This document shows, piece by piece, positions 8,890 through 63,829 of a DNA stretch of 64,000 nucleotides. Position 1 is the stretch's first letter. Every line of letters begins with the position of its first letter. Origin of the DNA: Naegleria gruberi (lineage: Eukaryota); NCBI GenBank assembly GCA_000004985.1, contig GG738868.1. One strand, 5' to 3'. The notes beneath the pieces are model-generated. The model was not told the origin of the DNA. It worked only from the letters and a program-made list of their open reading frames with translations, and did not search any database. The translations under genes and the position numbers were made by a program.

Positions 8890-10387
8890 TTATTCCCGAT
8901 GTTGTTGAGTCATGATAAATTGTTTAACTTCCTCAAAAACTTGTTTCGAATTATCATGATCAATTGCTGATAAAGTTTTCACAGAAACTGTATCAAGTGG
9001 ATGTTCAGTAATCTCATTCAGGAATAGTTTAGTCATATATTCGATACATGCCACTGGATTCTTCTCCTCTGCTTCATTAAATCCTGAAAAGTATTTTGAA
9101 AAACTCTTAGTGGCAATCTTCTTTTCGAATAAATCTCTCTTATTGAATAATAATACGAAAGGTACCTTGTAGAAGAGTGCATTATTTACAACTTCATTGA
9201 AAACTCGTAAACTTTCCTTCACTCTCCAATAGCCATTATCTTCGTAGAGATTTAAATCAAATTCTGAGAGACTTGTTAAAAAGACAACAGCATCTACTGT
9301 ATTGAAAAAGTGAATCCTGTATATTTCATTATTAATATAAATTCAATATATTTAAATAGTTGATTACAATATTTTAAATATTTTAAATATTGTTAAATTA
9401 CAATAAATTTAAATGATTCAAAGAATGAGTGCAACATACCATTTACGACGTTCATTTCTCTGACCTCCAACATCAACTAAACGTAACTGTTTTCCATCAC
9501 CAACGTCAAATTTCATATCTGTTATTCCAATGGTCTTGGTACGAGTTCTGATCACATCCACAACTGTTGGAACATATTTATCGGAACAAATTCTATCTAA
9601 ATTCTCAAAGAGACTGTCATTTTCCAATGGAAATATTGTAGAAAAAGGTTGAGAAGATGTTAAACAATTCGTCGAATATTTCCAAATTTGATTAGATTTG
9701 AAATTATTTGCATCAATTCGAATCATTAATTGTCATCATGATTATTATCAATTTTTTCAAAGTGAATACACAATAAACTGGTCAATTAATCAAGAAACGT
9801 TCAAACTTACTATTCAGTTGAATCATATAATTGAAATTTCTCTCTATTTTCATATGCTTTTTGAATTCCTGCATCTTTCCACAGAGAATACAATCGTTTA
9901 GACCAAGAAGGATCTTCCAAATCATTTGTATTCAATGAATTTATAATTAATTTTGCAGTTTCTCTATTTTCTGGTTGTTCAATTGGAATATTCAAGTGTT
10001 GTGTTGCTGCCACAAGATTTTTAGCATTTTCCAACACGTTTAATCGGACAATTTCTATTAATTCAATTCTCTCCTGATCGTGCGTTATTCCTACACCATG
10101 AAAGAATTGTACTTGTTTGAAAAGTGTTGATTTTCCTATTGGAATTGGGTTGAATTTTTGAATAGAATTGATTATTTGCAATTTTATATAAAGAATTTGA
10201 TTAATATTAGTCATGATTCGAATAAAAAGAACTTACCTGATTCACCAGCTCCCAGAAGAAGAACTGTAATCTCTGATTTGTTTTTTGCTGTGGCTGCTGA
10301 TCCTCCATTAGGATTGTTGGAAGTTGGAGTAGCCATCATATGATGTTGGCCTTCCTTATCATGAGGCGAAACTACAATATTACCCAT
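8890..10387 (-). CDS. heterotrimeric G-protein alpha subunit (4 exons, about 358 aa)
   Basis: Exons on the minus strand: 10237..10387, 9811..10135, 9440..9613, 8890..9316. Introns: 10136..10236 (GTAAGT), 9614..9810 (GTAAGT), 9317..9439 (GTATGT), all ending in AG. Phases are consistent, with total CDS 1077 nt. The spliced product starts MGNIV (myristoylation Gly2). It contains the P-loop GAGESGKSTLFKQ, DVIRTRTKTIGI (switch I), RLVDVGGQRNERRKW (switch II DVGGQR), and FVLLFNKRDLFEKKI (NKxD). Confidence 0.85.
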
Positions 10388-19053: not shown

Positions 19054-19109
19054 CGAAAGAAAGAAAGGACTCTTATAATTATATGAAAATTAACCTTGTG
19101 TTCAATAAT

Positions 19110-20206: not shown

Positions 20207-22463
20207 TTAATGTAATTGACCATCTTGTGTATCCAAATCAATATTGGATGATATTTCAGATCTAGTATCACCAAAATCAGAGTATGAACTATATAAAGGT
20301 TGTTTCAAACTGGATGAATCAAGTGAATTGGCAAATTCTTTAACTTCATCTCCTCCAACTTCGTCCCTCTCCCTAACAGAAGGCCAAACTCCAAATATTA
20401 CAAATACAAATAAACATGAGATGACCAACATCCACCCCAAAACAAGTGACAAAATGTCATATTCATAAACAATCTTTCCATCAGGTGATTGATTTCTATG
20501 ATTGGTAGAAAATGGTTGAATGCACTCAGTTACAATATTCCAAACAACGAGTATGAATAATAGAACAGGTCCAATGTACTTGATGGAAATGCTCCACAAA
20601 ATGTAAGGTCCAAATGAAGTTTCCTTGGAGAATCGTTCCCTTACATGTTCAATAGAAAAGAAGGAAACCTGTTTGAAATTATTCCAATTCTTTTCCAAAC
20701 GGAATTGATTCCAACGTTTTGAAAAGTATTGGCAAATAGAAATCCAATAGGTTATTGATTTGGTTCTTCTGAGTGCCTTTTTCTTTTTTCTATTGACTCC
20801 TCCATCTTGGTTGGAAGAGAACCATCCAATCATGACACATTCCATCATGGCAATCATTCCCATTCCATAATTTCCAACATAGTGATCTACAATTTCCAAA
20901 ATATAATACCCATTGGAGAGTGTGAATGGCACTGCAATCACACAAATGAGACAAACCACAATAATTGAAACAACTAATCGTCTGGTATTTCTACGAGGTA
21001 TTTGATTCTTGACAATATCAATCATGGACTCTACAAAACACATTATACTGTTAAATCCAACAAAGACTAGAGAAAGCAAGAGAATGAACACAAAAATTTG
21101 TGGTGTTGGGAATAATCTAGAAACTACTTCAATCATGACGAATAGAGGACTCGCAATCGCAGGAGTAAAGAGTGAATTGATTTCATAAGGACTGGTCCTA
21201 GTAGTCGAAAGATAACCTAAACTAGCATAATAGGTCAATCCACTAATTAAGGAAAATAACAATCCAAAGAAAATGATAGTCCACGAAGTGAAAATAGTAT
21301 CCTTCTTCGTCTTGTACTGTGAAGCATGAATAGCAAGAGCACCATTGGCAATACCATATGTGAAACATAATTGTCCAAAAGCTCCCAACCATAAATCTCC
21401 CTTTGCTAATAAGCTCCAATTTGGTCTGAGGAATTGCAACATTCCTGAACTAGCTCCAATTTCCAATGACACTCTAACCAATACAACAATCATAACCACC
21501 AGATACGACAAGCTCAATAATGAAATGATGACTCGAGAAAATCTATTGATGTACTGGGCAAAAACGAGCCAATAGGTAAGAAACCAGAAACAAACTAGAG
21601 AAACCAGTATTGGCCATGAAAGGAATCCTGAAAGATCAAATGAGTGATCTGAGAGATGCAATATTTCATCGTGAAAGAAGGTTTCTGGTTTATCAGACCA
21701 TGGAAATCTATATTTTCATCCAAAATATTGAAAAACAATGTTTCCAATTCAAATTAAATTGAAATACGTACTGTTCCATAAAAACATATCCAAAATAAGT
21801 TGCAATCCAACAAGTAATCACAGAATAATAAGAAGCAATAATCAAACTTCCAAAAACAATTGCTGCCATTCCAATTCCACTAGCTCTCCTATTCCACCTT
21901 CCCAATGCAAAGACAATCGATTGCTTGGCAATAGAACCCAATGTGAAATCCAAAATAATCAAAGGAGCTCCAATGATCACTAATAATACAATATATGGTA
22001 TAAAGAATGCACCTCCCTCGAATTGGTGCACTAAATAAGGGAATCTAATAACACTTCCAAACGTCATTGAGAATCCCACTGTTAAAATCAATGATTCCAA
22101 CATTCTTGCAATGACAAGGCTCTTCTTTTCATGTACAACAGAATTGCCTTGATCATTAGCAGCAGATGAGTAATAGTACAATGATGTCTGGTTATTTCCT
22201 CCGATTCCATGTTTGACAAACTTGTCATCAGCACCATGAGCACCACCACCATCATTAATACTCATCATTGAAGGAGAAGAATTTACAAAATGATTAGATG
22301 ATGAAATTCTGTGATTTGTTGATGGCTTATCTTCATGACTATCAATGGAACCATAATGAGTGGTGGGAATGTAATTGTGTTGTGAGGATTGCGAAAGGGC
22401 CCTTCCTCTCTGCTTATCATAATATTCATCATCATCATAATACAATTGATTATTATTCATCAT
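20207..22463 (-). CDS. SLC6 (SNF) sodium-dependent neurotransmitter/amino-acid transporter, 2 exons
   Basis: Exons 21772..22463 and 20207..21707, with a 64-nt intron 21708..21771 (GTACGT...ATATAG). The phase was checked: 692 nt, then 2+1501 nt. TM1 signature IRFPYLVHQFEGGAFFIPYIVLLVIIGAPLIILDFTLG (compare [22 protein letters not shown]). Downstream is a polytopic region ...GAFGQLCFTYGIANGALAIHASQ..., about 730 aa in total. Confidence 0.85.
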
Positions 22464-26829: not shown

Positions 26830-28948
26830 ATGGCCTCTCCAACAGTTCTTTTATCAACAACAAGGGCACTTTTGTTTCTTTCATTTCTTTTTGGTATCCA
26901 CCACTTTCGAATACATAAATGCCACCAATCAAGATCCATTCTTCTTATTTCTCGATAGTAACTTGTATACGGGACATGCATGGTCTGGATTACATGCTTT
27001 TTATTGGAAAGACTCTTTCAATTTTACGGATTCGGCAAGTTTCGTAAAGTATATGCAACAAGAACAAAATATCAAGGTTGCATTCATGGGAGATGATGAT
27101 TACAGAAATTATCTTCAAAAAATGTGGAGCGACTATTCGAAACTATATCAATTAGAAAATCTGCAATTTACCTATCTTCCAACAAGTGTTGGAACTTGCT
27201 TGACATATCATCCATTCGATGATTTTGATATTCTTATTTCATTGGATAGTTCTTTCTATGTTTCTATTCGAAAGTTCAATACTGGAAGAAGGAAACCTGA
27301 TGGTCAACTCTATAATTTTACCGATTTTTCATCAGTTTATTTGGATGCACCATTTGCCTTATATCAATACGATTCGGATAACAGTACAGGGTATCAATAC
27401 TATTCGAAACCTAATTGTACGAATGTCCAATTAGTTGCTGCCTATGAATCAGAAGTGCATATGAGTTATCTCTATTTGAAAAGAAATAATTCACTTTTAT
27501 CAGAAAGAGAAATTGAGTTTCTAAAATTTGCAAATTCCTTGACGAATCTCAAAACAATTTCTTCTACAATGCAAGAAAGAGCAAATATGGAGAAGGCATA
27601 TGGATTTGGAAATAATTCCTCTTTAGAATATTATCATTCATTATTCATGCCAGATTGTCAATGTGCGAATTCTGCATGTGCTTCAATTTCTTTTCAAGAA
27701 TCAGATTATTGGATTATACCAGCTGTAGCTTTGATAGTGGTGCATTATTTGGTATTATTCATTTCGAAATCTTTCTTGACACCTTCCTTAAAAAGTAGAC
27801 TTTTAATTCCATATTTGCCATTTATAGTAATATTTTTTGAAGCTAATAATTTTGGATTAATTTATAACTTGTGTTTTTATCCAAGAATGTTAATTTTTTC
27901 ATTTGTTATTACTTGGTACATTATGATCTATTCCTTGACAATTATAAGAATTTACTATTTAAGAAATTTATATCATTTACTTTCCAAAAATAGAAAGAAT
28001 ATTGAAAAGAAACTTAGGTTTCAGAAAACAATTTCAGGTCCTCTCATAGGTCTACTATTCACTTTTGTGGGCGGATTTGCTCTATGTGCCTTCCTTTCCC
28101 TTCCATTTTACTTTGTCTTTATGTACATCCCAATTGGAAACGCAATTTACGTGAATATAATTATTGGAATTTATGTTGCAGTTGCATGTTTGGTGGGTTT
28201 ATTGGCAATTGGCGCCGATTTGATATTTAATAGGAAGAAGATTAAGGAGAAGGGATTGAGATACTTGTTCTTCTTTGATGATCCTTATATGATTCGTATA
28301 GAGTTGATTCTAATTTCCATGATTATTGTTTCGATTATTATTGTATCGACGATACCTAATTCACATGGAGCCAGATTCGTTTCTTTTGTGATTTATGTTT
28401 GCATTGTGTTGATATCAGGAGGAATGGCCACACTCAAGAATATCTTCAACAAGATTCTGATAACTATTCGAAAGAATAAGGCAAATCACCACACAAAAGA
28501 TGAAATTGAAATCATGTTACAAAACTCTGATTTTAGAAATATTTTAAGAGAATACTGCACCAAAGAAATGTCTTTGGAAAATTTCAACATTTTCACACAA
28601 TTATTAGAAATGAAGGAAAAGAAAATTAATCTAACTTTTGAAATATTGAAAAATATTGAGGAACAATACATGGCACTGAATTCCTTATTCGAATTGAATG
28701 TTCCTTCTCATGTAAGAAGGGAATTTTATGTATTTTTGAAAGAAATGGAAAGTGGAAATAATTCGAAAGAAAACGAATTGAAGGAAAGTAAGGAAGAATC
28801 AAATTCCAATTTGGATAGATTAAATCTCATTCTGAAAGATTCAATTTTGCAAAATCTTGGAGATACACTCTCAAGATTAGAAACAACAAAGGAATATGAA
28901 ATATGGAATGAAATTTATTCGATTCAATCCAAAACCTTACAACAATAA
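26830..28948 (+). CDS. 7TM-RGS protein (signal peptide, N-terminal ectodomain, 7 TM helices, C-terminal RGS domain)
   Basis: The table ORF 26678..28948 starts at GTG and lacks a signal peptide. The +1 frame has ATG 26830 encoding MASPTVLLSTTRALLFLSFLF. A 40-nt intron 26894..26933 (GTATCC...CAAG, phase 1) joins it to the main frame (D-PFFLFLDSNLYTGHAW...). Seven hydrophobic helices span about aa 340-640. C-terminal RGS-like segment: NSDFRNILREYCTKEMSLENFNIFTQLLEMKE...IEEQYMALNSLFELNVPSHVRREF (compare RGS F..F..SEFSEENL.FW...E.Y......P.EVN). Confidence 0.6.
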
Positions 28949-30447: not shown

Positions 30448-31128
30448 ATGTTCAAGTCTTCCAATCTCAAACTCTTCAAAAATTCTTCTTCCATTCTCCG
30501 TTCCTCATCATCGTCATCACCAATTATTAATAATAATAATATTAATAATTTTAAAAAATATTCAACAACAGCAACAACAATGGAATGGATTCCAGTTTCT
30601 AAGGACGGTCAAGTCAAGAAGAGAATTATTACTCAAGGTTCAGGTGCTGAACTCCCACCACACGGATCAAAGGTCTCTGTTCACTACACTGGTACTTTGA
30701 CTAATGGAAAGAAGTTTGATTCTTCTGTTGATAGAGGCACTCCATTCTCCTTCAACTTGGGTCTCGGACGTATGTAGTATTTATTATTGTGTTGTTTAAC
30801 AGGCTAACTGTGTTTGAATTTGTATTATGATATTATACAAATATTATTATGATATTGGATTTTGTTGATTTATTATTGAATTCAATAATAACGTCGTTTG
30901 ATTATAATATTATTATTGAATAACATCGTTTAATTATAATATATTACTGGCTTAACAACAATAGAGGTTATTAGAGGTTGGGATTTGGGCGTCAAGACCA
31001 TGAAGAAGGGTGAAAAGGCTATTCTTGAAATTCCATCAGAGTACGCATATGGCTCTCAAGAAATTCCAAAGTTAATCCCTGCCAATTCTACTTTGATCTT
31101 TGAAGTTGAATTGTTGTCATGGAAGTAA
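30448..31128 (+). CDS. FKBP-type peptidyl-prolyl cis-trans isomerase (FKBP12-like core), 2 exons
   Basis: Exons 30448..30769 and 30965..31128, with intron 30770..30964 (GTATGT...AATAG, phase 1). The spliced core is [94 protein letters not shown]...[11 protein letters not shown], close to FKBP12 (VHYTG.L.DGKKFDSS.DR..PF.F.LG...VIRGW..GV..M..G......IP...AYG). A 44-aa Ser/Lys/Asn-rich N-terminal extension precedes the core. Confidence 0.85.
30880..30950. repeat. imperfect tandem duplication (about 32-nt unit) inside the FKBP intron
   Basis: aataacgtcgtttgattataatattattattg followed by aataacatcgtttaattataatatattactgg. Confidence 0.5.
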
Positions 31129-33964: not shown

Positions 33965-35052
33965 ATGATGCTAATTGATTCACAATGGAATCAAGTGTTG
34001 AATTCCGATGAATATTACAAGGATATAATTTCAACGTTCTTATCCCAAGATGTAGCACCACACTATTTCAAAGTACCAGGTTATGGAAGAAAGAAATTGG
34101 ATGATTATGAAGTTTTAATAATGAAGGGAATTTATCAATCATGGAAAGAATTATTTGTTAATTTGTAAGTTTTTCATGTGTTCAAAATCTGATTAAACAT
34201 CTTGATAGATTCTTTAGAAAATTCGAAACATTTAATGAACAATACCATCAGGCAGAGACTATTCTTGCATTTGAACAAAATATCAGATACGGAAGTGAAA
34301 AGGAAGATGACGAAGAAGAAGTGGAGGATAATCAAGACGAGGAGAGCAATGAAAAAACCAACTTGACCCTATTATTGAAAGAAGAGGCAACTCTTTGCAT
34401 TAAAGCAATTGAACAATCCAATGACACAACAGATTCCCTTCCTATTGGATCTTCTAAATTTGGAGGTAGACCTGATTTACCAAATGATTGTGTGTGGCCA
34501 ACTATGAAGAATGATTCAACAACACACATGATTTTTGTTGGTCAAATTAACTTGAAAGACTTGAAAAATTGTCATGCACCTAAGGGTGTATTACCAGTAA
34601 CTGGTTGGATGTTCTTCTTTATGGATTGGGGAGTTAATGGAGATTACTTTTCATTTTATTGGAATGGACCGGAATCTGAACTAAAAAGACATGACATGCC
34701 AGAGAAAGTGTACAACGATACCAAGTCTTTAAAATCAGTTTCCTTAAGTTTTGAAGAAATTGTTCAACCTTTAAAGAAGAGTTCTATTGAAGAGCATGAA
34801 TTACCTGAGGATGAAGAAGTTTTACTGCCTGTTGGTGGTTTTTCCTCAATACTGGGCTATCCTATGGCTTTCCAAGATGATGGAAATTACCTTCATACTA
34901 GTGGAAAGGTTTTCCTTTTCCAATTCAGTGGTTCAAACCAAGTAGACATTGATATGGGTGATGCCAACTTTTATTATTGTGCAAATATTGAAGATTTTTG
35001 TGGAGAAAAGACCCAGTCCAAGGTTGGTATTTATTCTGAATTCCAATCTTAA
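33965..35052 (+). CDS. DUF1963 (YwqG-like) domain protein; predicted 5' exon joined by a 44-nt intron
   Basis: Main exon 34209..35052. DUF1963 signatures: SKFGGRPDLPNDCVWPT...HMIFVGQINLKDL...LPVTGWMFFFMD ... VGGFSSILGYPMAFQDD...LFQFSGSNQVDIDMGDANFYYCANIEDF. The upstream ORF (frame ending ...SWKELFVN) terminates at a TAA that overlaps a GTAAGT donor at 34165. The acceptor ...cttgatAG at 34207-34208 restores the frame (phase 2). The upstream exon start (ATG 33965?) is uncertain. Confidence 0.5.
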
Positions 35053-39427: not shown

Positions 39428-42329
39428 TTATTCATCATCTTCATAGTCATCATCTTCATAATCACCTTCCTCATCATCCTCATCGTGATTAATACTGTGT
39501 TTGAAAGCAGCTTCTTCCTCCAATTTCTTTACCTTCATTTCAATAGCTCTTTGCTCCAAAACACAATCTGAGAAAATTTCGGCAATCTCTGCCAAGACTT
39601 CAAAATCCACTTTTTGTAACTCTTTTGCTGCACCTTCTAACTCATCACAGCTGAATGCTCCACTCGATACAAGTCTTCTGACATATTGTAACAAACTCTC
39701 TTTCAAAGAAATGTCTGCTATAAAATCGGCCATTGAATAAATATCAATAATGTACTGAGTAATGGTTTCTTGATTAATCTCAAAGGAAGGATTAATGTCA
39801 GTAGTGTCGCAAGTTGGAAAAGCAGATTTACATAAGATTACATTTTCAAAATCCACATCGTTAGTGTATGCAAAGTATACTAAGGCTGCTACAGAAATTA
39901 ATGGATGGGCTTGGTCTTGCAAATAAAATATCATTGAGACATCTGAAATATCAATCACATTACTTTCATCCACAACCATATTGTTGAACAAGTTGTTAAA
40001 ATATTCATAACGAATACAAAGGAGTGCCTTTGGTACTGTAATTTTCCAAGTTTTGTCTTCAAATGTCAAAGATAAAGTAGCGTTAGTGTTGATTTGTGAA
40101 TATTGAAGAGAGCTATCCATAAGCATGGAGAAATTAGTGTACATGTATTCTCTTGCCAATCTTACTCTCTTAGTTTCATAGCTATCGATCTGAGAAGTGC
40201 AACAGAGCTTGAAAAAGGAAATTTCTTCTTCTGAGAACCCTTTTTGACTGAGGAAGATATCAATATGTTTCTCTCGTGTTTCGTTGATTGTTGGGAGTAC
40301 ATTAAAGGATAAATAATTAGCAGTTAAAATTGCCAAATCTTTCAAGATAGCATCATTTGAAAGTTTAAGCTTGTCCCAAATAATCTTGAAAAGAGAAATA
40401 CCCTTCCTGATATCAATTGATATATATAATAACTTTCTTAAATAATCAATCATTTCTTGAATGCCAATAGAACAGACAGCTGAATATATCTCTATAAAGT
40501 CTTTAAAAATTGGCGTGTCTTTTTCATGATATGGAAGACTGACATCATTTGGGGTTAACTCAATACCATAGCAATACCTTAGTAAACACTTCAATGTCAA
40601 TGTAGTAAAGTGTGTAGTGTCAAGCTTTTTCTCAAACAATTCTCTAAAATATTGAATATGGGATAGCATGAATTTGTGGCATAGGAATCTGTCACCATCA
40701 GTTGATACTAGGGTATAATCTGAATAATTGTTTTCTTTAAGTAACTTCATGGACAATTCCTCAAACACAGCATCAGTAGAAGCACTTTTAGTTGGATCAA
40801 TAAGTAGAGAAGGGTCGTTTTGATAATCAAAGTGAGTCAAATCAAAAGTAAGAAGGGAAGAATCATAATCAGAATAACCAGTTTTGCCAGTTTTACCTCC
40901 AAAGCTAAGAAATTTCTTAGATAATGTTGTAGGATAAGAAGAAATCATTGGTCTGGAAAATGTGGTCATACTATCTCCATAATCATAGAATAAGCAGTTA
41001 GATTTAAAGTTAATATCATTATAACCAATACATAATCCAATATTTCCTCCTCTGTAAATTATTTCATCGTCGGTCAGTATTTTCTTTTTTAATTTTCTCT
41101 CCTTGCCTAGAGTAATTCTCTTCAAAGAAGATTTTTCATTCTCTTCTTCTCTCTGAATATCAAGCATTGAAAGTGAATCATCAACTAGTTTACAATTTTT
41201 CCAAATTTCTTCCTCAATGTTATATATTTGAGTATCTTTAAATCTATTTATGTCGTTTCTTCCACCATGAAGAATTAGGTATTCATATTGTGATTCAAAG
41301 TTATGATTGAACTTCATAGTCTTTGAAATAAACTTTGGTTTTCCATAAGATTGAAATGATGATAATCCAGCTGCAAATCTAGCATCTGGGAAAGAGTAGT
41401 TACAATCAACACTGAACCAAGTCTTACAATTAAAGTCAAAATATTCCAACAAGTTAAGTGAAGAGCTACTCGCATAGTAATGGTCATTACTTGTTCTTCC
41501 ACCAAAAATAAAGAACTTATTCAAGACCATTGCAGAACAAAGTACATGCCTGGAACTTGGTTTCTTACCTGCCAACACCTCGACATCCTTCCAAAGCAAA
41601 TCTCTAAAATCAAATTCAATAAAATCATCGAATTCAAAAAGTGATCCCTCACCCCCAAACACTACAAATCCCGATTGATCTGATTTCAATTCCATAGCAT
41701 GAGCATATCTTTTACAATCACCAATAGGAACAACTGTCTCAAAAACACTTTGATAATGGACTTTCCTCTCGTGTGGATAAGGGTAACCAGTTAGATTTCC
41801 AGTTGCTTGCCTCCAGTTAGTTAATCCTGTGTCACCAAGATGTGTTTTCCACTTGAATGTATTCAAATCCAATTTAAAAACGCCAATATCTAGAAATTGA
41901 TATCCCATATTGCTCTAAATGAATCATTCAGAAATGCAAAATGAAAAATAAACTCACCACATTACCACCAAAGAAATAGATTGCATGATCAGCTCTTCTA
42001 TAAACACATTTCATTCCCCATGCCTGACGAATTGCTGAATTATTAACAGAGTGTTGTTGCCAAACACCTGTTCTCAAATCTAATTCAAATACTTCAAGAT
42101 CTCCACTCACAACATGTTCTTCAACAACACCACCCATACAGAAGAGTGAATGTCTCGGAGGACAAGCCACAAGAGCAATTTGAGATCTTTGTGAAGGAAC
42201 TTTGCCTCGTTGTTGTTCCGCTGTAAATTTTCGATAGGGAATAAATGGATCGGAGCAAATATCATTCATGAAGCGAGACGAAGTGGTCGAACCAACACTA
42301 ACACTCTCGCTTTGATAATTTGATGACAT
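39428..42329 (-). CDS. Kelch-repeat protein with two C-terminal BTB/POZ domains and acidic tail, 2 exons (about 952 aa)
   Basis: Exon 1 is about 41958..42329 (ATG 42327-42329; MSSNYQ...IYFFGGNV). A 43-nt intron (GTGAGT...CATTTAG) follows, then exon 2 is 39428..about 41914 (SNMGYQFLDIGVFKLD...). Kelch blades have GG/W spacing (FVVFGGEG, FIFGGRT, LILHGGRND). BTB1: DYTLVSTDGDRFLCHKFMLSHIQYFRELFEK. BTB2: WKITVPKALLCIRYEYFNNLFNNMVVDESNVIDISDVS. The tail is DEDDEEGDYEDDDYEDDE. My base count disagrees with the ORF table by 1 nt in this stretch, so splice coordinates are accurate only to +/-1. Confidence 0.75.
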
Positions 42330-49064: not shown

Positions 49065-49295
49065 ATCAATTTCATTTGAATTTGAATCATTAAATTATTA
49101 AATACATATTTGGAAATTCAATTATTAATTTACCCATAAATTTGTTATTGTATTGCGTTTTGAAAAAAGCATGTAGATCAACAAAACTGATATGTATTGT
49201 AATATTATTTTAAATTGATTGGAAAAATTGTAAACTTTCAAAAAACGAAAAATTTGGTAATTCAAGATTAATTTTTTTTGAATTTGATAAAAAAA

Positions 49296-51448: not shown

Positions 51449-52663
51449 ATGTATACAACAATACTATCATCAAACTCTTCCCTCGGAAATCAATCATCAT
51501 TATATATCGGAAACTGTTTACTGGTTGACCCAGATGGTTATCCCTATATTGAATGGATGTATAGCATAATGGGAGAGTGTGTTCATTCACCATTGGAACA
51601 GAGTTCATTCTACGTTGGATTGGGAAGTATAGTCCTCTATTTATTTGGAGGTATTCCACAGATTGTTCAGAATTTTATAAAGCATCATGCTGATGGATTG
51701 TCGCCTTGGACATTGGCTCAGTGGATGGTAGGGGATGGCAGTAATTTGTTGGGTGCAGTTCTGACAGGACAATTATTCACACAGATATTGTTGGCTGTTT
51801 ACTTTGTTTTGGTGGATATCATTCTTATTGGACAATATGTTGGATATAAATTGAGGGATTGGTACAGAGGAAGGAAAGATAAGAAGAAACAAGTGGAAAT
51901 GAAAGATTTTGAAGAGGATCACCATCATAAAATGGTTTTGGATAAAATAGAGCAAACCAGTAATAATGAATCAACAATGAAGAGAATTACCTCAAAGGTA
52001 ATATCTGTTTTTGGAGAGAATAAGGAGGATGTTCATGATATGCATGTTGAAATGGTACATTCAGATCATTCAGATGATGAGCACCATCATGAAGAAACAA
52101 TTCATGAAGATACTAATGCTGCAAAACTCAATTCTCCTCTCAATATTTCAATTCTATTGGTTTTGATTGCATTTTTCTGTATTTTTCAAATTATCAACAC
52201 AGCTCAATTGAATCCAAATCTAATTGGTGCCGAGTTCACAAATCAAAGAGTTGGCAGGAAATTGCTTACCATTCAAGAAGAGAAGGATCACAATAGTGTT
52301 GAATTTCCTCCAACTTCTGCCAAATCAATCATTGGATATGTTATTGGATGTATTGCAACTGTTTCCTACCTTGGTTCGAGGATTGCACAAACATTCAAAA
52401 ATTTTAAAAGAGGGAGTACCGAAGGAATGAATCCAATTTTATTCCTTTGTTCTGTATCAGGAAATATACTCTATTCGCTCTCGATATTCTTGTTTTCAGT
52501 GGATAGCTCATTCTTAATGTACAAAATTCCGTGGTTATGTAGCAGTTTGGGTAATATTACTCTTGATACAGTCATATTATCTCAATACACTTTCTATACA
52601 TTTATCAAAAAACATATCAAAGCAGGAAAATCCTCTAAGGGAAATCAATCAAATAAGGTTTAA
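51449..52663 (+). CDS. PQ-loop repeat membrane transporter (PQLC2/Ypq/LAAT-like)
   Basis: ATG at 51449. PQ-loop 1: GGIPQIVQNFIKHHADGLSPWTLAQWMVGDGSNLLGAVL. PQ-loop 2: SRIAQTFKNFKRGSTEGMNPILFLCSVSGNILYSLSIF (the KRGSTEG motif is typical of PQLC2/Ypq). There are 7 predicted TM helices. A central acidic His-rich loop (HSDHSDDEHHHEE) is present. Confidence 0.7.
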   Translation: MYTTILSSNSSLGNQSSLYIGNCLLVDPDGYPYIEWMYSIMGECVHSPLEQSSFYVGLGSIVLYLFGGIPQIVQNFIKHHADGLSPWTLAQWMVGDGSNLLGAVLTGQLFTQILLAVYFVLVDIILIGQYVGYKLRDWYRGRKDKKKQVEMKDFEEDHHHKMVLDKIEQTSNNESTMKRITSKVISVFGENKEDVHDMHVEMVHSDHSDDEHHHEETIHEDTNAAKLNSPLNISILLVLIAFFCIFQIINTAQLNPNLIGAEFTNQRVGRKLLTIQEEKDHNSVEFPPTSAKSIIGYVIGCIATVSYLGSRIAQTFKNFKRGSTEGMNPILFLCSVSGNILYSLSIFLFSVDSSFLMYKIPWLCSSLGNITLDTVILSQYTFYTFIKKHIKAGKSSKGNQSNKV

Positions 52664-52685
52664 CATGGTAATTCAACATGGATGG

Positions 52686-55075
52686 TTACATTGAAGTAGG
52701 ATAAGGTCTATCATAAATTACTGCTTCTGGTTGTTCAATTGAAGAAGATGTAGTGGTTGGCTGTATTGGTAATGATTGATTTTTCTCGCTTCTAGGGGAA
52801 ACTATACCTTCTTTAAGCACCTCACTGGATTTGTGTAACTCTTCAATTGCATTATTGACTTCATCTATTGAGGTTCCCGAGGAGGAGGAGGAGGAACTTG
52901 AGGAGGAGCTACTATCATGATTGGTTTCGACCACAGCTGCCGTAGCTGGTACTGTCACTGGTATAATTGGTTCACAAGGAATAATATTACTATTATTATT
53001 AGTATTTTTAGTTGTGCCAACTTTGTTCCTCTTAAGGTTCAAACTAGAGGGCAGATAATGATGTAAGAATAGTAGTTTCCCACCCTCTCTGCTTTGAAGA
53101 GTTTCATAAACCAAACACATAAAATATCCAATCGAAAGGGAAATGAAGAATACACCTATCACAATACCAGATACACCTAGTCCAATAACGTGATCCAACA
53201 TATCTGGTGCCAATACAATTTCCATGTTTGGACAAGTTTTAAGATATTCAATCACACCCCTATGTCCTCCATCAACATTTTCCCAAGGAATATTTCTATT
53301 CAATCTTTCACCATTAATTCTAATGTCATTGTAGAAATTTTGAGTTGTTACTTTGAAATCATCAGACAAGGAACATTTCATACCCAATGGATTAATCTGC
53401 TCTGAGGTCATGTTATTCAAGCAACAAATACGGAATGATGTTGAGCTAGATAGTTTCGATGGCTTAAATTTTATACCATCTGGACCGACCATATTAGAGG
53501 TCATGTAGAGACTCTCAGTAATTTCTCTCAAAATATCTCCATAGACGGCAACAAATGATACAAAACTCAAAAGACCTATCAAAAATGTTAATATACAATT
53601 GAATACAATAGCATATCTATAATTGCCAGCAAAAGTAAATAGTTGATAAATACACTAGATCACATACCTCATTTTCTTGTGGTAATCACTGGTTATTTTA
53701 CCAAAAAGCTTTGAGGTATAGACAGCTACGTATTGTAAATAATTAGTGATACATAAATCAACATACCTCCAATTAAGAAGAAGCCAACAGGCATCACCAT
53801 CATTTTCAAATTATTGCCCTTTGATGTAAGGAGACTTTCATCATAACTAAACCCTTCTTTCCATATTACTATATGGGAAAAAGCAAGATAAATCAGAATT
53901 AAGGCACCAACAACTCCAGTTAGAAAGCCTCCAGTCAATACTGGGCTCTCAATTAGACCAACTCCAAACTTTCTATCGGTTGCAATCGAAGAAGAACGAG
54001 GCGAATAGGAACCAGAATCGTCTGTTGTGTAATAGTCAATTTGTTTATCCTCTTTAAGCCAAATAATCAATGCTTGCCACTCTCCTCCTCTTTTTGGAAC
54101 ATTTCCAGAGATGGTTTCAAATAAATTTATCTTTTTGTTTTCTCTCCATGTTAAAGTTGTCCTGTTTAGCAATGCTTGTTCAAATGTTTTTCCTGAAGTA
54201 AAGAGTAGAGATCCATAAACACTATAGGGAAAAAAGTTAGGTGAAGAAAATTGCAATGTTAGATCGAACCCGTCTACTAGTTCAGAAGATAAATAGTATG
54301 CTTGATAAATATGTTGAGCACTGGATGGGTTTCCTTCTTTGAGATCTGAATAATAGACCGTAAAGAACGGATTTCCGCTTACTACTGTTGATGTTGAATT
54401 TGTTGTAGTATTTGATGAACTAGTTGCTAATTGATTTACAGTGCCATTAATTGCTAATTGATCTATAGTTCCATTTGTTAATGTATCAGGTTTGGATGTA
54501 TCATTAAGAGTTTGATTATTGATCATTGTATCATTCAAAGTGGAATCCATCCATTTCAATGATTCTCTTTTTGCAAATACTGGAGATGAAGTTGTTTTGA
54601 ACAGTATATCAATGAATCCAGAGAAGTCAAATCTTCCATTCATTGAAACAAACTTCATACTTTTAGAATCAACAGTGGCAATTGCTGAATCTCCATTAAA
54701 AAAGAACCTCAAACTGAAACTAGTTGTGTAAGGATATTGATTCATTAATTCCGTTTTAAAATCATAATTTGATGATGAGGCAGTATCTCCAACCTTGATG
54801 AATATTTGCCCTGGCCTATCCAAAAATTGCAAATTAAATGCGTTAAATCCTATAAATAATTGAGCATCAGATGCCCTATTATCCCTAAACGTTAACCTGT
54901 GATGATATTCATTACTTGAAGATGTACTGGGAAGAGAGACCTTACTAACGGAAGACATTCGTGAGCTGATGATGGTCTCAGCACCCATAACTTGCCATCC
55001 TCCCGAGCAATTTGCTATTATTATTACTAATATTGTCCAACTAATAACCACTCCCGACCACAATAATTTGCTCAT
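52686..55075 (-). CDS. large membrane glycoprotein (signal peptide, about 370-aa N-glycosylated ectodomain, multiple TM helices, Ser-rich cytoplasmic tail), 2 exons
   Basis: ATG at 55073-55075 (MSKLLWSGVVISWTILVIIIANCSGG). Exon A 53753..55075 ends ...GFFLIGGMLIY. A 98-nt intron 53655..53752 (GTATCA...GATCTAG, phase 0) follows. Exon B 52686..53654 continues CIYQLFTFAGNYRYAIVFNCILTFLIGLLSFVSFVAVYGD... in the frame of table ORF 52686..53582. No family assigned. Confidence 0.5.
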
Positions 55076-55435
55076 TCTCGTATGTTATTGAATGAGAACT
55101 CAAACTATTGATGTATTGAAGAAGAGGGAAGCGACGCCTTTTTTTCCTTAATTTTTTAAAAAACGACAAATTTATTGTGGCGGTTTTTTACTGTTACGAT
55201 GTTATTCACCTTAGAAAAAGTTCATCCTCCGACGGAAATCAATGAATGGATCAACGAACAAAGCATATGAAATAGGGAACAACGGAAGATGTGATGATGC
55301 AAAAAGATGAAACATTCAATAAGATTTGAAGAAGACCAAGCTTAATGTTACTTGAGATTTGTTTTTAATTGGAAATGGAAATGTTATAATTTAATAATAT
55401 ATATATTAATAATCAGTATAAATAATATTTAAAAA

Positions 55436-57109
55436 ATGGGACAAGATCAATCAACAGTTTCCATTCCGAAGAATAACATGTTTATTTGTGGAGAAAACAA
55501 AGAATGTAATTATATTTAAATACTTACATTTAGAATGAAAACAATTTGATAATTATTTAAATATATCATTGTATTATCAATATGATAAATAATGATCAAA
55601 TAATATTAAAGATCAATTCGGAATTGGATTTTCAAATTATACAACATTGAGAGAAATTAATAATTTCAAACAGGAAAATATTAAGAAGGTGTGCTGTGGA
55701 CCAAACTTTACAATTGTTCTAACCGATAGAGATGAAGTATATGGAACAGGATCGAATATTTATGGAGTTTTGGGTTTAGATTCATTTAGTCAATCGGATA
55801 GTCATCACTTTAATATTAATCGATTTGTAAAATTGCCAATTTCATTCAAGGTACAACATATTTGCTGCTGTAGATCGATGGTTGCTATTATTTCGAATGG
55901 ATATTTGAAAGCAAATAGGGAAACATTGTTGAATAGATCGATTATTTCGAATAGTTCCAGTCCTACCCAATTAAATGCCTATGGGCAAATGTTTTTCTGG
56001 AGTGGAGGTGATATTTCAATATCTGGTTGTCCAATCAATAAGAAATTCACTCCAATATATGATTGGAATTTTAATATAATGGGAAAAGTCAAGTTTTTCG
56101 AGTCGAGTCCATTTTCTTCCTTTTTTATAGTAGTAACAGGTAATTATTAATATTTCATTAGATTATAATTTTCGTTGGAATATATTAGAATTCAATAGGG
56201 TTTACTTTTCTGGACAAAATTGTAGTGGACAATTTGGAAATGGAGAGGAGAAACGAAATTTTAAATCCTTGTACCAATTGACTGATAATTTATTTCCAAC
56301 TTTTAAAGGCATAAAGCATGTTGCTTGTGGATCTAAACATTGTATTATAGTAACAGATGATAATGAACTCTACTCGAGTGGTAGTAATCAATATTTTCAA
56401 TTAGGACACTCCAACAATGCGAAACAAGACACCTTCCAGAAACCTGCAACAGAATTTCAAGGCAAAAAAATTGAACTAGTCAAGTGTGGAGAAAATTATA
56501 CAATGGTTTATTTGAGTAGTAAGTTTTGAGAGTTGGTTCGAATTTTTAATAATGAGGAAATTGTCAGATGGTGATTTATATGCTTGTGGAGCTAATCATT
56601 TTGGACAATTACTCAATAATCAAACTCAAAGGAAGGTTATATTTCACAAGATTCTAACTGATCGATCACTTGTTTCCCTCTCTTGTGGTAATAACTTTTC
56701 GCTCTATTTGACCAGGAATTGCCAAGTAATGAGGGCAGGTTCTAATGAATATGGTCAATTATTCTCTACGAAGAATGGATTTCAAATGCAAACTACAAAG
56801 GTGGATAAATCAATGCGTTTATTTGGATTGACTTGCTCCAACAATCTGACAATACTATATAAACAAAAGGATAATGATTGTGGAGAGATTTATTTGAGAA
56901 GATATTGCTCACAATTTGTCAAATCCTCTCCAAACAATAATAGACAACAGAACAAGGTATTATCACCCACAAAAAAGAGGAAGAAAAACTACCTTATGTA
57001 CAGATCTATCCACGACCATTTCTCGTTCATGTTTGATATTGCTTCGAGCTTGAAAATGGAGAATGCTACCCACCTTTTGTGCGATATTGAGGTGAAAATT
57101 TTGGAATGA
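55436..57109 (+). CDS. RCC1-repeat (regulator of chromosome condensation-like) protein, 4 exons (about 489 aa)
   Basis: Exons 55436..55505 (MGQDQSTVSIPKNNMFICGENKE), 55612..56139, 56189..56518, 56568..57109. Introns: 55506..55611 (GTAATT...AAAG), 56140..56188 (49 nt, GTAATT...TATTAG), 56519..56567 (49 nt, GTAAGT...GTCAG), all phase 1. The spliced product carries repeated RCC1 signatures: CGENKEYQFGIG, VCCGPNFTIVLTDRDEVYGTGSNIYGVLGLDS, IVVTEFNRVYFSGQNCSGQFGNG, VACGSKHCIIVTDDNELYSSGSNQYFQLGHSN, LYACGANHFGQLLN, LSCGNNFSLYLT...AGSNEYGQL. Confidence 0.7.
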
Positions 57110-61526: not shown

Positions 61527-61613
61527 TCCGATGAGACGGAATCGAACCGCCGACCACAGGATGACAGTTTTTCTTGCTACAGTCCCATGCTCTACCAGCT
61601 GAGCTATCATCGG
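61527..61613 (-). tRNA. tRNA-Tyr (anticodon GUA) with 14-nt intron
   Basis: The revcomp is CCGATGATAGCTCAGCTGGTAGAGCATGGGACTGTAG[caagaaaaactgtc]ATCCTGTGGTCGGCGGTTCGATTCCGTCTCATCGGA. It closely matches the eukaryotic tRNA-Tyr consensus (CCTTCGATAGCTCAGCTGGTAGAGC...GACTGTAG...ATCC...GGTTCGATTCCGG). The intron lies immediately 3' of anticodon position 37, the canonical site. Confidence 0.8.
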
Positions 61614-61733
61614 TTACATTCCATTGGTAATTAAGGAATCTGACCCTTAGTACAATAATATGTTATCCATGCCTGTTACCTATGCTTAATAGTGGTAGAT
61701 ATTTAATATTCATCATTAATAATGTACAATTTT

Positions 61734-63829
61734 TTACTTCTTAAGCTTTGGGAAAATGGATCCAAGGTGAGGAATGAGTTCAGTGTGGAATTGGTATGAT
61801 TGACCAGTTGCATAAATTACAATTTTTCCTGCAGGATTAATTCTAAAAACTAAAAATCATATATAAATTAAAATATGAATGAGTAACACTTACTTCTTTC
61901 TGGAGCAATTCCTAATTGTGACATGGCAACATCATCAGTAGCTCTATTACCAAATCCAGAATAGAATGGAGTGACCTTCTTTAGAGCTTCATGACGTTGT
62001 TCTGTGGTAGTTGACAAAAGCCCTGGTACAAAGGTCTTTAACACAATGTCCAACATGTAAATCTTGAATGTATCTGGTCTCTTTAACACAATTTCTCTCA
62101 CAAGAGCATTTCCTCCTGAATTGTAAGCAGTAAATACAGCACCCTCAGGTAAATCCACTGACTTTCCATTCTTGGAGTATTTTTGTTGCAATCTTTCAAT
62201 GAAAAATCTAGTGCTGGAAGACATTGTAATTGGACGAGCTGTCAAGTAGAGCATCTTGTAACCAGCTTGATGAATTTCAGAGTATGCTTCAGTGATATCC
62301 TTGTGTACATAGTCCTTTCCAATTCTACAAGCAACATGACCTCCCAAATCAGATTTTGTAATAGTGCCGTCAATGTCCGAAACGATAATCTTGTCAGTAT
62401 CTTTCCACAAGTAGAGTCTTCCGAGAGCAAGTTGTTCCTTATTGGTACCACTGCTTTCCTTTTGCTTGGCACCTGCAACCTTGGCAATATTGCTGCCAAA
62501 CATTGAAAATTCAGGTAATTGTTGTTCTAACACCTTGGTTTTGAAAATCAAAGTCAACTTGGTTTCACCCTTTTCATAGAACTTGTTCAATTCAGTTTCG
62601 ATAGCTTTCAAGTGACTTCCGGCTGGAATAAACCATTCGTGTGGGTAGAGCAATTCATCGTGAATATTCTTCAAAACCTTCTTCTTGAGTCGTTCTCTTC
62701 TAGAAGACTTTTCCTCATTGGTTTCACTTGGTGTGGATGGAGTGTTAGATTTTTTGAGTTTTTGTTTGAAACTGGATAAACGGTGTTTCAATCCCTTCTT
62801 TTGTGTTGGTGTTTCTGGAGTCAATGTTGATGGAGAAGAGCTTTCATCGTCAGAAACTGGTGTTACAGGTGAGGAAATATCATGATGCATACTGTTGGTA
62901 GAACTAGTGTGAATGCTTGGAGTTGTAGAGTCAGAGAAACTTCCAAATCCCATAGAGAGGGCCATCTCTCCAGCAAAGTGTTTAAGCATGTCTCTCTTTT
63001 TCAGCTTTTCCTCTTCTTCCTGCTTTTCATCACGTCTCTTCTTTGTCATTTCTTTCAGGTATTTGATTTTTTCCTTTGGTGTTTTCAAGGAATTGTAATG
63101 TTTGTAAAATTCATTCATTTCCTCTTGGGTGGCATGTTGGAAATATTCAAATTCTTCGCCCTCAATTGGTGATGAATTCAATCCATTCTCCTTCTTTACC
63201 TCTTCAAGAATTGATGCAATATTCAATTGTGGAGCATCATGATCCAAGTCCTCACTTTCAATATCCTGATCAGCATGTTCTGCAATTTGCTGTTCCCACC
63301 TTTGAATCTTTTCTTGTTCTTTCAAATCATCTTCCACAGGTTTAAGTTCATCACCCAAATCCTTACTCAATTCTTTAGTTTCCTTTTTCATTTCCTTCAT
63401 CATGTCGCTAATCTTTCCACCAAATACTTTTTGGTCAAAGAAGGGAATTTTGAATCCACTTTCAATAGTCATGGTAGCAATCAAAGTTTCCTGTCCTCTC
63501 TTTGTGCTTGATCTATAATGTTCAGCAGTTAAATCAGTCTTGGCATCATAAGATTTAACAAATACTTGTACAGATTGATTGACTGTTGATTTCTTTGGAA
63601 ATCTAACAAAGAATGGTGTTGTTTTCACAGAGCATGATTCATCCCTCGACTTGACAGCAATAACATCAATACAATTACCAATCAATAATCGTTTCTGATC
63701 AGCAATCTTTGTAGTTGGTGCAATATTGTGCAAATCCGATGATGAGGCAGACATGTTTTCTTCTTGTTTTATATTAAATAATTTGCTTTTTGACAGTGAA
63801 TGAACAATTTTGCAAAATAAACTTTTCAT
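61734..63829 (-). CDS. lipin/Ned1/Pah1-type Mg2+-dependent phosphatidate phosphatase, 2 exons
   Basis: The N-LIP region is ...LLIGNCIDVIAVKSRDESCSVKTTPFFVRFPK (compare G.IDVIVV...DGS...SPFHVRFGK). The C-LIP catalytic DxDxT motif is IIVSDIDGTITKSDLGGHV, followed by LTARPI...FGNRATDD. The table ORF 61868..63829 reads through a 44-nt 3' intron 61850..61893 (GTAAGT...TTTTTAG, phase 1). The spliced C-terminus RIFRINPAGKIVIY... matches lipin (IFTINPKGE) and ends at the stop at 61734-61736. The start is ATG 63827-63829, or an alternative ATG at 63752-63754 (MSASSSD...). Confidence 0.85.

What the first reader, a model, noticed from the sequence alone, without database searches (positions are those of the whole stretch)
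53655..53752. A class of ultra-short (37-49 nt) introns, some with GTATC donors, reconciles several 'broken' ORFs
Besides 100-200-nt GTAAGT or GTATGT introns (G-alpha, FKBP, RCC1 intron 1), I find 40-49-nt introns in five genes. They are in kelch/BTB (43 nt), DUF1963 (44 nt), lipin (44 nt), RCC1 (2 x 49 nt) and 7TM-RGS (40 nt), plus one of 64 nt in SLC6. Two use GTATCC or GTATCA donors (7TM-RGS; membrane glycoprotein, 98 nt). Each restores a reading frame and extends recognisable domain sequence. A bimodal intron-length distribution with a tight short class is a genome-level property, and automatic ORF callers miss every one of these genes.
Basis: partly seen in the sequence, partly recalled or inferred. 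Interest (0 to 1): 0.5.

Follow-up and report, generated by a model that had tools for sequence, protein, structure and literature searches.

The report
Short canonical introns in Naegleria genes
The window is Naegleria gruberi DNA whose genes carry ordinary spliceosomal introns, many only 41-64 bases long; the flagged 98-base intron with an odd GTATC start is more likely two canonical short introns around a 58-base exon, which corrects a gene model but shows no new biology.

Summary
The window is a piece of a 427,589-bp Naegleria gruberi NEG-M scaffold. The short-intron class is real. I confirmed 43-nt (kelch/BTB), 44-nt (lipin, DUF1963), 2 x 49-nt (RCC1) and 64-nt (SLC6) introns, plus 101-197-nt introns in G-alpha, FKBP and RCC1. 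All have GTAAGT, GTATGT, GTGAGT, GTAATT or GTACGT donors and 13-31% GC. The kelch/BTB, lipin, SLC6 and G-alpha models match deposited 2010 proteins exactly, so the class is already annotated. The GTATC-donor claim is not supported. At 53655-53752 the 98-nt GTATCA intron does restore the frame, but 18% of shuffles offer such a solution. The same locus holds two gaG|GTATGT donors. These define a 41-nt intron, a 58-nt exon and a 51-nt intron, a configuration seen once in 128 kb and in 0.1% of shuffles. Only sequence signals support this model; homology does not discriminate and no RNA data were available. The 40-nt GTATCC candidate in the 7TM-RGS gene is 40% GC, has a weak donor and an AAG acceptor, and is unresolved. 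U12-type splicing is excluded. The useful yield is annotation repair: the glycoprotein gene is absent from the protein collections searched, and the DUF1963 and RGS models are wrong.

The parts
53767..55075 (-). Membrane glycoprotein gene, exon 1 (ATG at 55075; signal peptide, N-glycosylation-rich ectodomain, first TM segments). It ends one base into a codon (phase 1).
   Evidence: ORF. 97% identical to metagenome ORF P0014. Residues 64-152 and 366 onward align to the N. fowleri protein P0015.
53726..53766 (-). Proposed intron A: 41 nt, gaG|GTATGT...ACTAAT...cgTAG, GC 0.24.
   Evidence: Sequence and table. GTAAGT/GTATGT is rare in ORFs (9 in 45 kb, 4 of them at ORF 3' ends). Identical in strain contig L001.
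53668..53725 (-). Proposed 58-nt internal exon encoding (A)VYTSKLFGKITSDYHKKM(R). It is open only in the frame set by intron A. GC 0.34.
   Evidence: It carries one conservative change (Thr to Ser) in L001. The coding-potential test gives only weak support.
53617..53667 (-). Proposed intron B: 51 nt, gaG|GTATGT...ttATAG, phase 2, GC 0.29. It rejoins the downstream ORF at ...YAIVFNCILTF.
   Evidence: It has 2 substitutions in 51 nt against L001, which is intron-like.
52686..53616 (-). Glycoprotein gene, exon 3 (TM3, Cys-rich loop, TM4, Ser-rich tail, stop codon at 52686-52688).
   Evidence: 98% identical to P0013. Aligns to N. fowleri P0015 residues about 1077-1248.
53655..53752 (-). It is in frame, but judged a chance alternative that overlaps intron A, the 58-nt exon and part of intron B.
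26894..26933 (+). Candidate 40-nt intron of the 7TM-RGS gene (ttG|GTATCC...caAG). It would join ATG 26830 with its signal peptide to the main ORF. Unresolved.
   Evidence: GC 0.40 against a maximum of 0.325 in 586 intron windows. The public model P0016 avoids it.
41915..41957 (-). kelch/BTB intron, 43 nt, GTGAGT...TTAG.
   Evidence: The spliced model of 952 aa equals XP_002677171.1 exactly.
34165..34208 (+). DUF1963 gene intron, 44 nt, GTAAGT...ATAG.
   Evidence: The public model P0017 reads into it and stops.
61850..61893 (-). Lipin intron, 44 nt, GTAAGT...TTAG.
   Evidence: The LNS2 match extends to 226 of 226. The 658-aa model equals XP_002677175.1 exactly.
56140..56188 (+). RCC1 intron 2, 49 nt, caG|GTAATT...TTAG.
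   Evidence: The junction recreates an RCC1 repeat (..IVVTEFNRVYFSGQNCSGQFG..). The Pfam RCC1-like domain match starts right at it.
56519..56567 (+). RCC1 intron 3, 49 nt, GTAAGT...TCAG.
   Evidence: Pfam WD40_RLD matches residues 193-390 continuously across the junction.
21708..21771 (-). SLC6 (SNF) intron, 64 nt, GTACGT...ATAG.
   Evidence: The 730-aa model equals XP_002677166.1 exactly.
55506..55611 (+). RCC1 intron 1, 106 nt, GTAATT...AAAG.
9317..10236 (-). G-alpha gene span holding three introns: 10236..10136 (101 nt, GTAAGT), 9810..9614 (197 nt, GTAAGT) and 9439..9317 (123 nt, GTATGT).
   Evidence: The 358-aa model equals XP_002677164.1 exactly. Pfam G-alpha matches in one stretch, 16-333 of 333.
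30770..30964 (+). FKBP intron, 195 nt, GTATGT...ATAG.
   Evidence: Pfam FKBP_C matches 4-94 of 94 in one stretch after splicing.

Best explanation
The window is nuclear DNA of the heterolobosean amoeboflagellate Naegleria gruberi. Its genes are interrupted by ordinary major-spliceosome (U2-type) GT-AG introns. These have an extended GTAAGT/GTATGT-like donor, are AT-rich, and often sit near a minimal length of about 41-64 nt.

At the flagged site the glycoprotein pre-mRNA most likely loses two such introns rather than one 98-nt GTATCA intron. They are 53766..53726 (41 nt) and 53667..53617 (51 nt), and they flank a 58-nt exon at 53725..53668.

Shown: the species; the other short introns; the two consensus donors and their exact frame compatibility; and that the two ORFs belong to one gene.

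Inferred: that the two-intron form is the one actually spliced. No RNA data were available.
For: Species:
- Six single-exon ORFs equal deposited N. gruberi proteins exactly.

Class of short canonical introns:
- Spliced models of kelch/BTB, SLC6, lipin and G-alpha equal deposited proteins exactly.
- Pfam matches become continuous after splicing for lipin, G-alpha, FKBP and RCC1.
- The 11 confident donors are GT[A/G][A/T/C][G/T]T with T at +6 in all of them. Their GC is 0.13-0.31 against 0.35 for coding sequence.
- Against a 94-99% identical metagenome strain, confident introns show 2.5% substitutions plus 43 indel columns. Exons show 0.79% and 15 indel columns.

Focal locus:
- Both donors read gaG|GTATGT.
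- With donor 53766, every nearer acceptor except 53726 runs into a stop (worked out by reading). The stop is then avoided only through the second GTATGT, whose 51-nt intron lands exactly in the downstream frame.
- A scan of both strands of the window finds this double configuration only here.
- It arises in 0.1% of shuffles, against 18% for an arbitrary single GT..AG solution.
- GC under this model is 0.24 / 0.34 / 0.29 for intron / exon / intron. The 98-nt interval taken as a whole is 0.33.
- Strain differences fit slightly better. Two changes fall in intron B; under the 98-nt model they would be Tyr to Ser and Ala to Val. My estimate of the likelihood ratio is about 4.
- One gene, not two: N. 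fowleri P0015 aligns across both ORFs, and in N. fowleri that region is one uninterrupted ORF.
Against: - No transcript evidence was available.
- Protein homology does not discriminate. phmmer against N. fowleri P0015 gives 44.4 bits for the 98-nt model and 42.4 for the two-intron model. Neither model-specific peptide aligns better than its own shuffles.
- Under the two-intron model the second TM segment has only about 17 hydrophobic residues.
- The controlled coding-potential test on the 58-nt exon is weak; 16% of stop-free non-coding windows score as high.
- The consensus rests on only 11 confident introns from one window.
- No deposited N. gruberi protein covers this locus, so there is no annotation to compare with.
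Confidence: 0.75

Rival explanations
1. One reading: a single 98-nt intron, 53752..53655, with a non-consensus GTATCA donor. The two GTATGT hexamers would then be coincidental, one in the exon and one inside the intron.
For: - It is in frame, phase 0.
- It gives a longer hydrophobic second TM segment and scores 2 bits higher against N. fowleri P0015.
Against: - Donor positions +5 (C) and +6 (A) are seen in none of the 11 confident donors.
- It needs two GTA[AT]GT hexamers to form a complete in-frame two-intron solution by chance, which happens in 0.1% of shuffles.
- A solution of its own kind arises by chance in 18% of shuffles.
- It puts two non-synonymous strain differences within 38 nt of exon, where about 0.3 substitutions are expected.
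Confidence: 0.05
2. A single 191-nt intron, 53766..53576, from the first GTATGT to ttgatAG. It would fuse the two hydrophobic segments into one TM helix, and the inner GTATGT would be incidental.
For: - It has a canonical donor, is in frame, has GC 0.28, and its length falls in the window's 100-200-nt group.
- A three-TM topology would place the Cys-rich, N-glycosylation-rich loop outside the cell (inference).
Against: - The phmmer score against N. fowleri P0015 falls from 53-55 to 45.6 bits and the alignment breaks in two. The homolog has both hydrophobic segments inside one uninterrupted ORF.
- It would leave 26 codons of open, in-frame sequence inside the intron.
- It needs the inner in-frame two-intron arrangement to be chance.
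- The 191 nt carry no indel against L001, although introns are indel-prone.
Confidence: 0.08
3. For the 7TM-RGS gene, the 40-nt GTATCC interval is not an intron. Either the assembly or this allele carries a 1-nt indel, for example in the T5 run at 26888-26892. That would give MASPTVLLSTTRALLFLSFL-LVSTTFEYINATNQ.... Or translation starts elsewhere, as in the public model, and ATG 26830 heads a short upstream ORF.
For: - The interval is 40% GC. No 40-nt window in the 11 confident introns exceeds 32.5%, whereas 28% of coding windows reach 40%.
- Donor +5 and +6 are both non-consensus, and the acceptor is AAG, seen in 1 of 11 confident introns.
- In frame 0 the interval reads as plausible coding sequence with an N-glycosylation sequon.
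- The public model P0016 starts at an internal Met.
Against: - ATG 26830 has the AAAAAAATG context seen at other starts in the window and encodes a textbook signal peptide.
- GTATCC..AG is the only GT..AG pair of acceptable length with a GTA start that links that frame to the main ORF (and my enumeration).
- A Sanger-assembly indel in a T5 run is uncommon.
- No independent contig was found to test it.
Confidence: 0.6
4. The GTATC donors mark U12-type (minor spliceosome) introns.
For: GTATCC is the first six bases of the U12 donor consensus [A/G]TATCCTT.
Against: - The following bases do not match: GTATCCacc and GTATCActa.
- No TCCTTAAC-like branch site lies upstream of either acceptor.
- A survey of more than 3000 eukaryotic genomes found no evidence of minor introns in Discoba, the group that includes Naegleria (PMC10639083).
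Confidence: 0.01

Closest known systems
Short ('minimal') U2-type spliceosomal introns of intron-poor protists, including other Heterolobosea
   Same: - GT-AG ends, an extended GTAAGT/GTATGT donor and AT-rich composition.
- Lengths clustered just above the physical minimum.
- Acrasis kona introns are reported as 9-95 bp (PMC11589745).
- An N. fowleri transcript-mapping pipeline set the minimum intron length to 30 bp 'based on an assessment of predicted genes' (PMC8296547).
- Introns in intron-poor eukaryotes are generally short (PMC3488318).
   Different: Nothing mechanistic. The published mean for the N. gruberi annotation is 203 bp (PMC8296547), while the median in this window is about 51 nt. 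Part of that gap may come from spurious long predicted introns, such as the 214-nt one in P0017. That last point is inference.
Minimal-intron peak and bimodal intron-length distributions described in animals, flatworms and ciliates
   Same: A narrow short class plus a broader longer class (PMC2856156, PMC4040987, PMC5014332).
   Different: Here the pattern rests on 13 introns in one 64-kb window, and the 'long' class is only 100-200 nt.
U12-type (minor) introns
   Same: Only the GTATC start of the two candidate donors.
   Different: - The rest of the donor consensus is missing.
- There is no U12-type branch site.
- The lineage is reported to lack minor introns (PMC10639083).
These are not members.

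Membership tests
U2-type (major) spliceosomal intron | GT...AG termini | tested here: met
   All 11 confident introns and both proposed glycoprotein introns have them. So do the 98-nt and 40-nt candidates.
U2-type (major) spliceosomal intron | Extended 5' splice site able to pair with U1 and U6 (GTRAGT or GTATGT; G or T at +5, T at +6) | tested here: met
   The donor table covers 13 donors, including the two proposed ones. It shows A or G at +3, G (11) or T (2) at +5, and T at +6 in all 13. The feature is not met by GTATCA (98-nt model) or GTATCC (RGS candidate).
U2-type (major) spliceosomal intron | Branch-point-like YTRAY motif 10-40 nt upstream of the 3' AG | tested here: inconclusive
   Read by eye. 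Intron A has ACTAAT about 17 nt from the AG, and the other short introns have CTGAT, TTAAT or CTGAAT. No statistical test was possible with so few introns.
U2-type (major) spliceosomal intron | Removal restores a continuous reading frame and a homologous protein | tested here: met
   Pfam matches become continuous for lipin, G-alpha, FKBP and RCC1. Four models equal deposited proteins exactly. For the glycoprotein gene the frame is restored, but homology cannot choose between models.
U2-type (major) spliceosomal intron | Relaxed constraint relative to exons (faster substitution, indels of any length) | tested here: met
   Confident introns show 2.5% substitutions and 43 indel columns in 482 nt. 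Exons show 0.79% and 15 indel columns in 7550 nt. The numbers at the focal introns are too small to decide: 0 in 41 nt and 2 in 51 nt.
U2-type (major) spliceosomal intron | Spliced junction observed in RNA | not testable with these tools
   N. gruberi RNA-seq exists (PRJEB23822, cited in PMC6142364), but reads cannot be reached here.
U12-type (minor) intron | Donor [A/G]TATCCTT | tested here: not met
   The candidates read GTATCCACC and GTATCACTA.
U12-type (minor) intron | TCCTTAAC-like branch site 10-20 nt from the acceptor | tested here: not met
   The 3' ends read ...ATGCCACCAATCAAG and ...ATGAGGTATGTGATCTAG.
U12-type (minor) intron | The lineage has a minor spliceosome | not tested
   Literature only: no evidence of minor introns in Discoba (PMC10639083). 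No snRNA family reached the Rfam gathering score in the window, which says little for a 64-kb sample.
Bimodal intron-length distribution with a minimal-intron peak | Two separated modes in the genome-wide length histogram | tested here: inconclusive
   The window holds lengths of 41, 43, 44, 44, 49, 49, 51 and 64, then 101, 106, 123, 195 and 197. That is n = 13 with none between 65 and 100 nt. The 41 and 51 are the inferred glycoprotein pair. A genome-wide histogram could not be made.

The most novel reading that the evidence does not exclude
N. gruberi might genuinely splice a small class of ultra-short introns with non-consensus GTATC donors and coding-like composition, such as the 40-nt GTATCC interval after the 7TM-RGS signal peptide. 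Gene finders would systematically miss that class. Together with unannotated canonical mini-introns, this would mean the published gene set and intron statistics for this reference excavate are appreciably wrong.
Probability: 0.15. Interest if true: 0.4.

Novelty: new member of a known kind. Interest (0 to 1): 0.2.

Why it matters
The value is practical. N. gruberi is the reference free-living heterolobosean and is much used in reconstructions of early eukaryotic gene content and intron evolution.

In this one 64-kb window, three genes are wrong or missing in the protein collections searched:
- the membrane glycoprotein gene is absent;
- the DUF1963 gene is fused to its neighbour and truncated inside a 44-nt intron;
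- the 7TM-RGS receptor has lost its N-terminus.

If that rate holds genome-wide, re-annotation with RNA-seq and a short-intron-aware model would change gene counts and intron-length statistics. It does not change what is known about splicing mechanisms.

Tried and rejected
1. A chimeric 1457-aa query (glycoprotein plus RGS) to the search for homologous proteins gave nothing. One of three searches was lost.
2. The look-up of encoding contigs on exact N. gruberi proteins found no record, so the deposited gene coordinates could not be read.
3. Both metagenome scans, for the RGS N-terminus and the glycoprotein junction, found no relatives. No independent contig exists to test the indel hypothesis for the RGS gene.
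4. Homology as arbiter at the focal site is uninformative. The only non-identical relative is N. fowleri P0015 at 26% identity, and it does not separate the 98-nt model from the two-intron model. It does argue against the 191-nt model and against two separate genes.
5. The first coding-potential test looked decisive, but stop codons in the intron background inflated it. Against stop-free non-coding windows it is weak, and I give it little weight.
6. U12-type introns were considered because of the GTATCC and rejected.
7. Exact look-ups failed for the 98-nt, two-intron and 191-nt glycoprotein models and for ORF 1 alone. They also failed for both RGS models, DUF1963, FKBP and RCC1. So the annotation status of RCC1 and FKBP remains unknown.
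8. The 2010 genome paper (PubMed id 20211133) is not held. I could not check whether it already shows an intron-length histogram.
Full report
**Source of the window.** The window is 33% GC and gene-dense, with long ORFs broken at a few places. Six single-exon ORFs are identical, residue for residue, to deposited proteins of Naegleria gruberi NEG-M on a 427,589-bp scaffold. Everything below is therefore about the introns of a published genome.

**The observation at 53655-53752.** On the minus strand, GT (GTATCA) starts at 53752 and AG ends at 53655. The interval is 98 nt, phase 0, and its removal joins ORF 53729-55084 to ORF 52689-53654.

Frame restoration alone is weak evidence. One search lists dozens of in-frame GT..AG pairs at this junction. 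In 3000 shuffles of the 190-nt junction region, 18% produce at least one in-frame single solution of 35-110 nt. GTATC occurs 33 times in 45 kb of sense-strand ORF sequence.

**The other introns.** I rebuilt each gene model.
- Kelch/BTB with the 43-nt intron (41957..41915, GTGAGT) equals XP_002677171.1 exactly.
- SLC6 with the 64-nt intron (21771..21708, GTACGT) equals XP_002677166.1 exactly.
- Lipin with the 44-nt intron (61893..61850, GTAAGT) equals XP_002677175.1 exactly.
- G-alpha with introns of 101, 197 and 123 nt equals XP_002677164.1 exactly.

Pfam agrees. LNS2 extends from profile position 192 to 226 of 226 after splicing. G-alpha (16-333 of 333) and FKBP_C (4-94 of 94) become single stretches. 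The RCC1-like domain runs uninterrupted across the junction of the second 49-nt RCC1 intron (56519..56567).

The first 49-nt RCC1 intron (56140..56188, GTAATT) recreates an RCC1 repeat. The 44-nt DUF1963 intron (34165..34208, GTAAGT) lies upstream of the domain, so it does not 'extend' the domain. It is still required, because the domain begins before the first Met of the downstream ORF.

These 11 confident introns share three properties.
- Donors are GT[A/G][A/T/C][G/T]T with T at +6 in every case.
- GC is 0.13-0.31, against 0.35 for coding sequence.
- Against a 94-99% identical Naegleria strain from metagenome ERZ929261 (loci L001-L004), they show 2.5% substitutions and 43 indel columns in 482 nt. 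Exons show 0.79% and 15 indel columns in 7550 nt.

The short-intron class is real and canonical.

**The focal locus re-read.** The minus strand reads ...ttggaG|GTATGTtgatttatgtatcactaattatttacaatacgtAG|ctgtc...aaaatgaG|GTATGTgatctagtg...caattatAG|atatgc.... Two perfect gaG|GTATGT donors sit 99 nt apart.

The first (53766) is 37 nt before the end of the upstream ORF, in phase 1. Reading, every acceptor it could use within 112 nt leads to a stop, except AG 53727-53726 (a 41-nt intron). The resulting frame is open for 58 nt. It would then stop, except that the second GTATGT (53667, phase 2) with AG 53618-53617 (51 nt) lands exactly in the downstream frame at ...R-YAIVFNCILTF.

Several results bear on this two-intron model.
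- GTAAGT/GTATGT is rare in ORFs: 9 in 45 kb, four of them at ORF 3' ends where they serve, or probably serve, as donors. None occurs inside the 1015 nt of confident introns.
- A scan of both strands finds the double arrangement only here.
- It arises in 0.1% of shuffles.
- GC is 0.24 / 0.34 / 0.29 for intron / exon / intron.
- In strain contig L001 both donors and acceptors are unchanged. The three differences are a Thr to Ser change in the 58-nt exon and two changes in the 51-nt intron. Under the 98-nt model those two would be Tyr to Ser and Ala to Val within 38 nt of exon. I estimate this favours the two-intron model about four-fold, which is modest.

**What homology can and cannot say.** No deposited N. 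gruberi protein covers this locus, by word-indexed search, by a full HMMER scan of representatives, or by exact look-up of four models. The only relative is the hypothetical N. fowleri protein FDP41_000002 (P0015, 26% identity). It aligns across both ORFs, and in N. fowleri that region is a single uninterrupted ORF.

That shows one gene rather than two. It also disfavours a single 191-nt intron (53766..53576), which lowers the score from 53-55 to 45.6 bits and splits the alignment. It does not separate the 98-nt model (44.4 bits) from the two-intron model (42.4 bits). Neither model-specific peptide aligns better than shuffled versions. Both the N. fowleri protein and the two-intron model have a basic loop before the third hydrophobic segment (3 and 5 Lys or Arg, against 1 in the 98-nt model), which is only suggestive.

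A codon-usage test that first looked strong was an artefact of stop codons in the background. Properly controlled, it is weak.

My estimate: two-intron model about 0.75, 191-nt intron about 0.08, 98-nt GTATCA intron about 0.05, and the rest other or unknown.

**The second GTATC donor.** In the 7TM-RGS gene, ATG 26830 has an AAAAAAATG context and a textbook signal peptide, MASPTVLLSTTRALLFLSFLF. It is in a different frame from the main ORF. The only GT..AG pair of acceptable length with a GTA start that links the two frames is 26894..26933 (40 nt, GTATCC...CAAG).

That interval is atypical for an intron in three ways.
- It is 40% GC. None of 586 forty-nucleotide windows in confident introns exceeds 32.5%, while 28% of coding windows reach 40%.
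- Both +5 and +6 of the donor are non-consensus.
- The acceptor is AAG, seen in 1 of 11 confident introns.

It also reads as plausible coding sequence in the main frame (VSTTFEYINATNQ). A 1-nt indel in the T5 run at 26888-26892, or a different start as in the public model P0016, would explain the same facts. No independent contig was found to decide. I put the intron at about 0.3.

**U12-type splicing.** This is the one known context for a GTATCC donor. It is excluded by the rest of the donor, by the absence of a U12 branch site, and by a survey of more than 3000 eukaryotic genomes that found no evidence of minor introns in Discoba (PMC10639083).

**Comparison with what is known.**
- Short introns are the norm in intron-poor protists (PMC3488318).
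- The heterolobosean Acrasis kona has introns of 9-95 bp (PMC11589745).
- An N. fowleri pipeline used a 30-bp minimum intron length 'based on an assessment of predicted genes' (PMC8296547).
- Minimal-intron peaks and bimodal length distributions are described in several lineages (PMC2856156, PMC4040987, PMC5014332).

The phenomenon is therefore known. The window's lengths (41-64 nt for 8 introns, two of which are the inferred glycoprotein pair; 101-197 nt for 5) suggest two groups, but the sample is too small to prove it.

**What is new is local.**
- The glycoprotein gene appears to be missing from the protein collections searched.
- P0017 fuses a neighbouring gene to DUF1963 exon 1 through a 214-nt GTGAAT intron of coding-like GC, then terminates inside the real 44-nt intron.
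- P0016 lacks the N-terminus of the RGS receptor.

The published mean intron length of 203 bp (PMC8296547) may be inflated by such models. That is inference.

**Verdict.** The finding is a real but ordinary feature. Its most distinctive claim, GTATC donors, is not supported, and its focal coordinates are probably wrong. RNA-seq junction counts (PRJEB23822) would settle both open points.

Noticed in passing
window 39219-39337 (-): A complete 5S rRNA gene (Rfam RF00001, 105 bits) lies dispersed among protein-coding genes, next to the kelch/BTB gene.
   Followed up: no
window 61527-61613 (-): A third tRNA gene of 87 nt (Rfam 54.8 bits) was missed by ARAGORN. Read by eye, it has a GTA anticodon followed by a short tRNA intron, so it is probably tRNA-Tyr. 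It lies just 3' of the lipin gene.
   Followed up: partly
window 26736-26760 and 26768-26792 (+): A perfect 25-nt direct repeat, ATTTCTGCGTCTTACTGGATACACA, with a 32-nt period, ends 38 nt upstream of the AAAAAAATG start of the 7TM-RGS gene. It may be a promoter or regulatory element.
   Followed up: no
window 32107-34168 (+); annotated intron 33356-33569: The deposited N. gruberi protein P0017 (615 aa) looks chimeric. It joins the upstream TM-protein gene to exon 1 of the DUF1963 gene through a 214-nt GTGAAT intron of coding-like GC (0.33). It then stops inside the real 44-nt intron.
   Followed up: partly
window 26830-28948 (+): The deposited protein P0016 (631 aa) for the 7TM-RGS gene starts at an internal Met (MQQEQ...). 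It lacks the signal peptide and about 60 residues of the ectodomain. Its RGS domain is only a weak Pfam match (E = 0.008, below the gathering score).
   Followed up: partly
loci L001-L004 (ENA ERZ929261) against window 52420-55241, 61698-63954, 9364-10812 and 19019-22200: A metagenome assembly holds a Naegleria gruberi-like strain at 94-99% nucleotide identity. The 197-nt G-alpha intron carries most of the intron indel columns in that strain.
   Followed up: partly
window 47769-49064 (+) and 47822-49090 (-): An extremely Lys/Arg/Ala-rich 431-aa ORF with a signal-peptide-like start is mirrored by an equally long antisense ORF. A similar basic repeat forms the C-terminal half of ORF 16468-18339.
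   Followed up: no
window-wide, e.g. 26830, 42329, 55436: Many start codons sit in an A-run (AAAAATG), which shows up as 'KKM' in stop-to-stop translations. This helps in choosing true starts.
   Followed up: no
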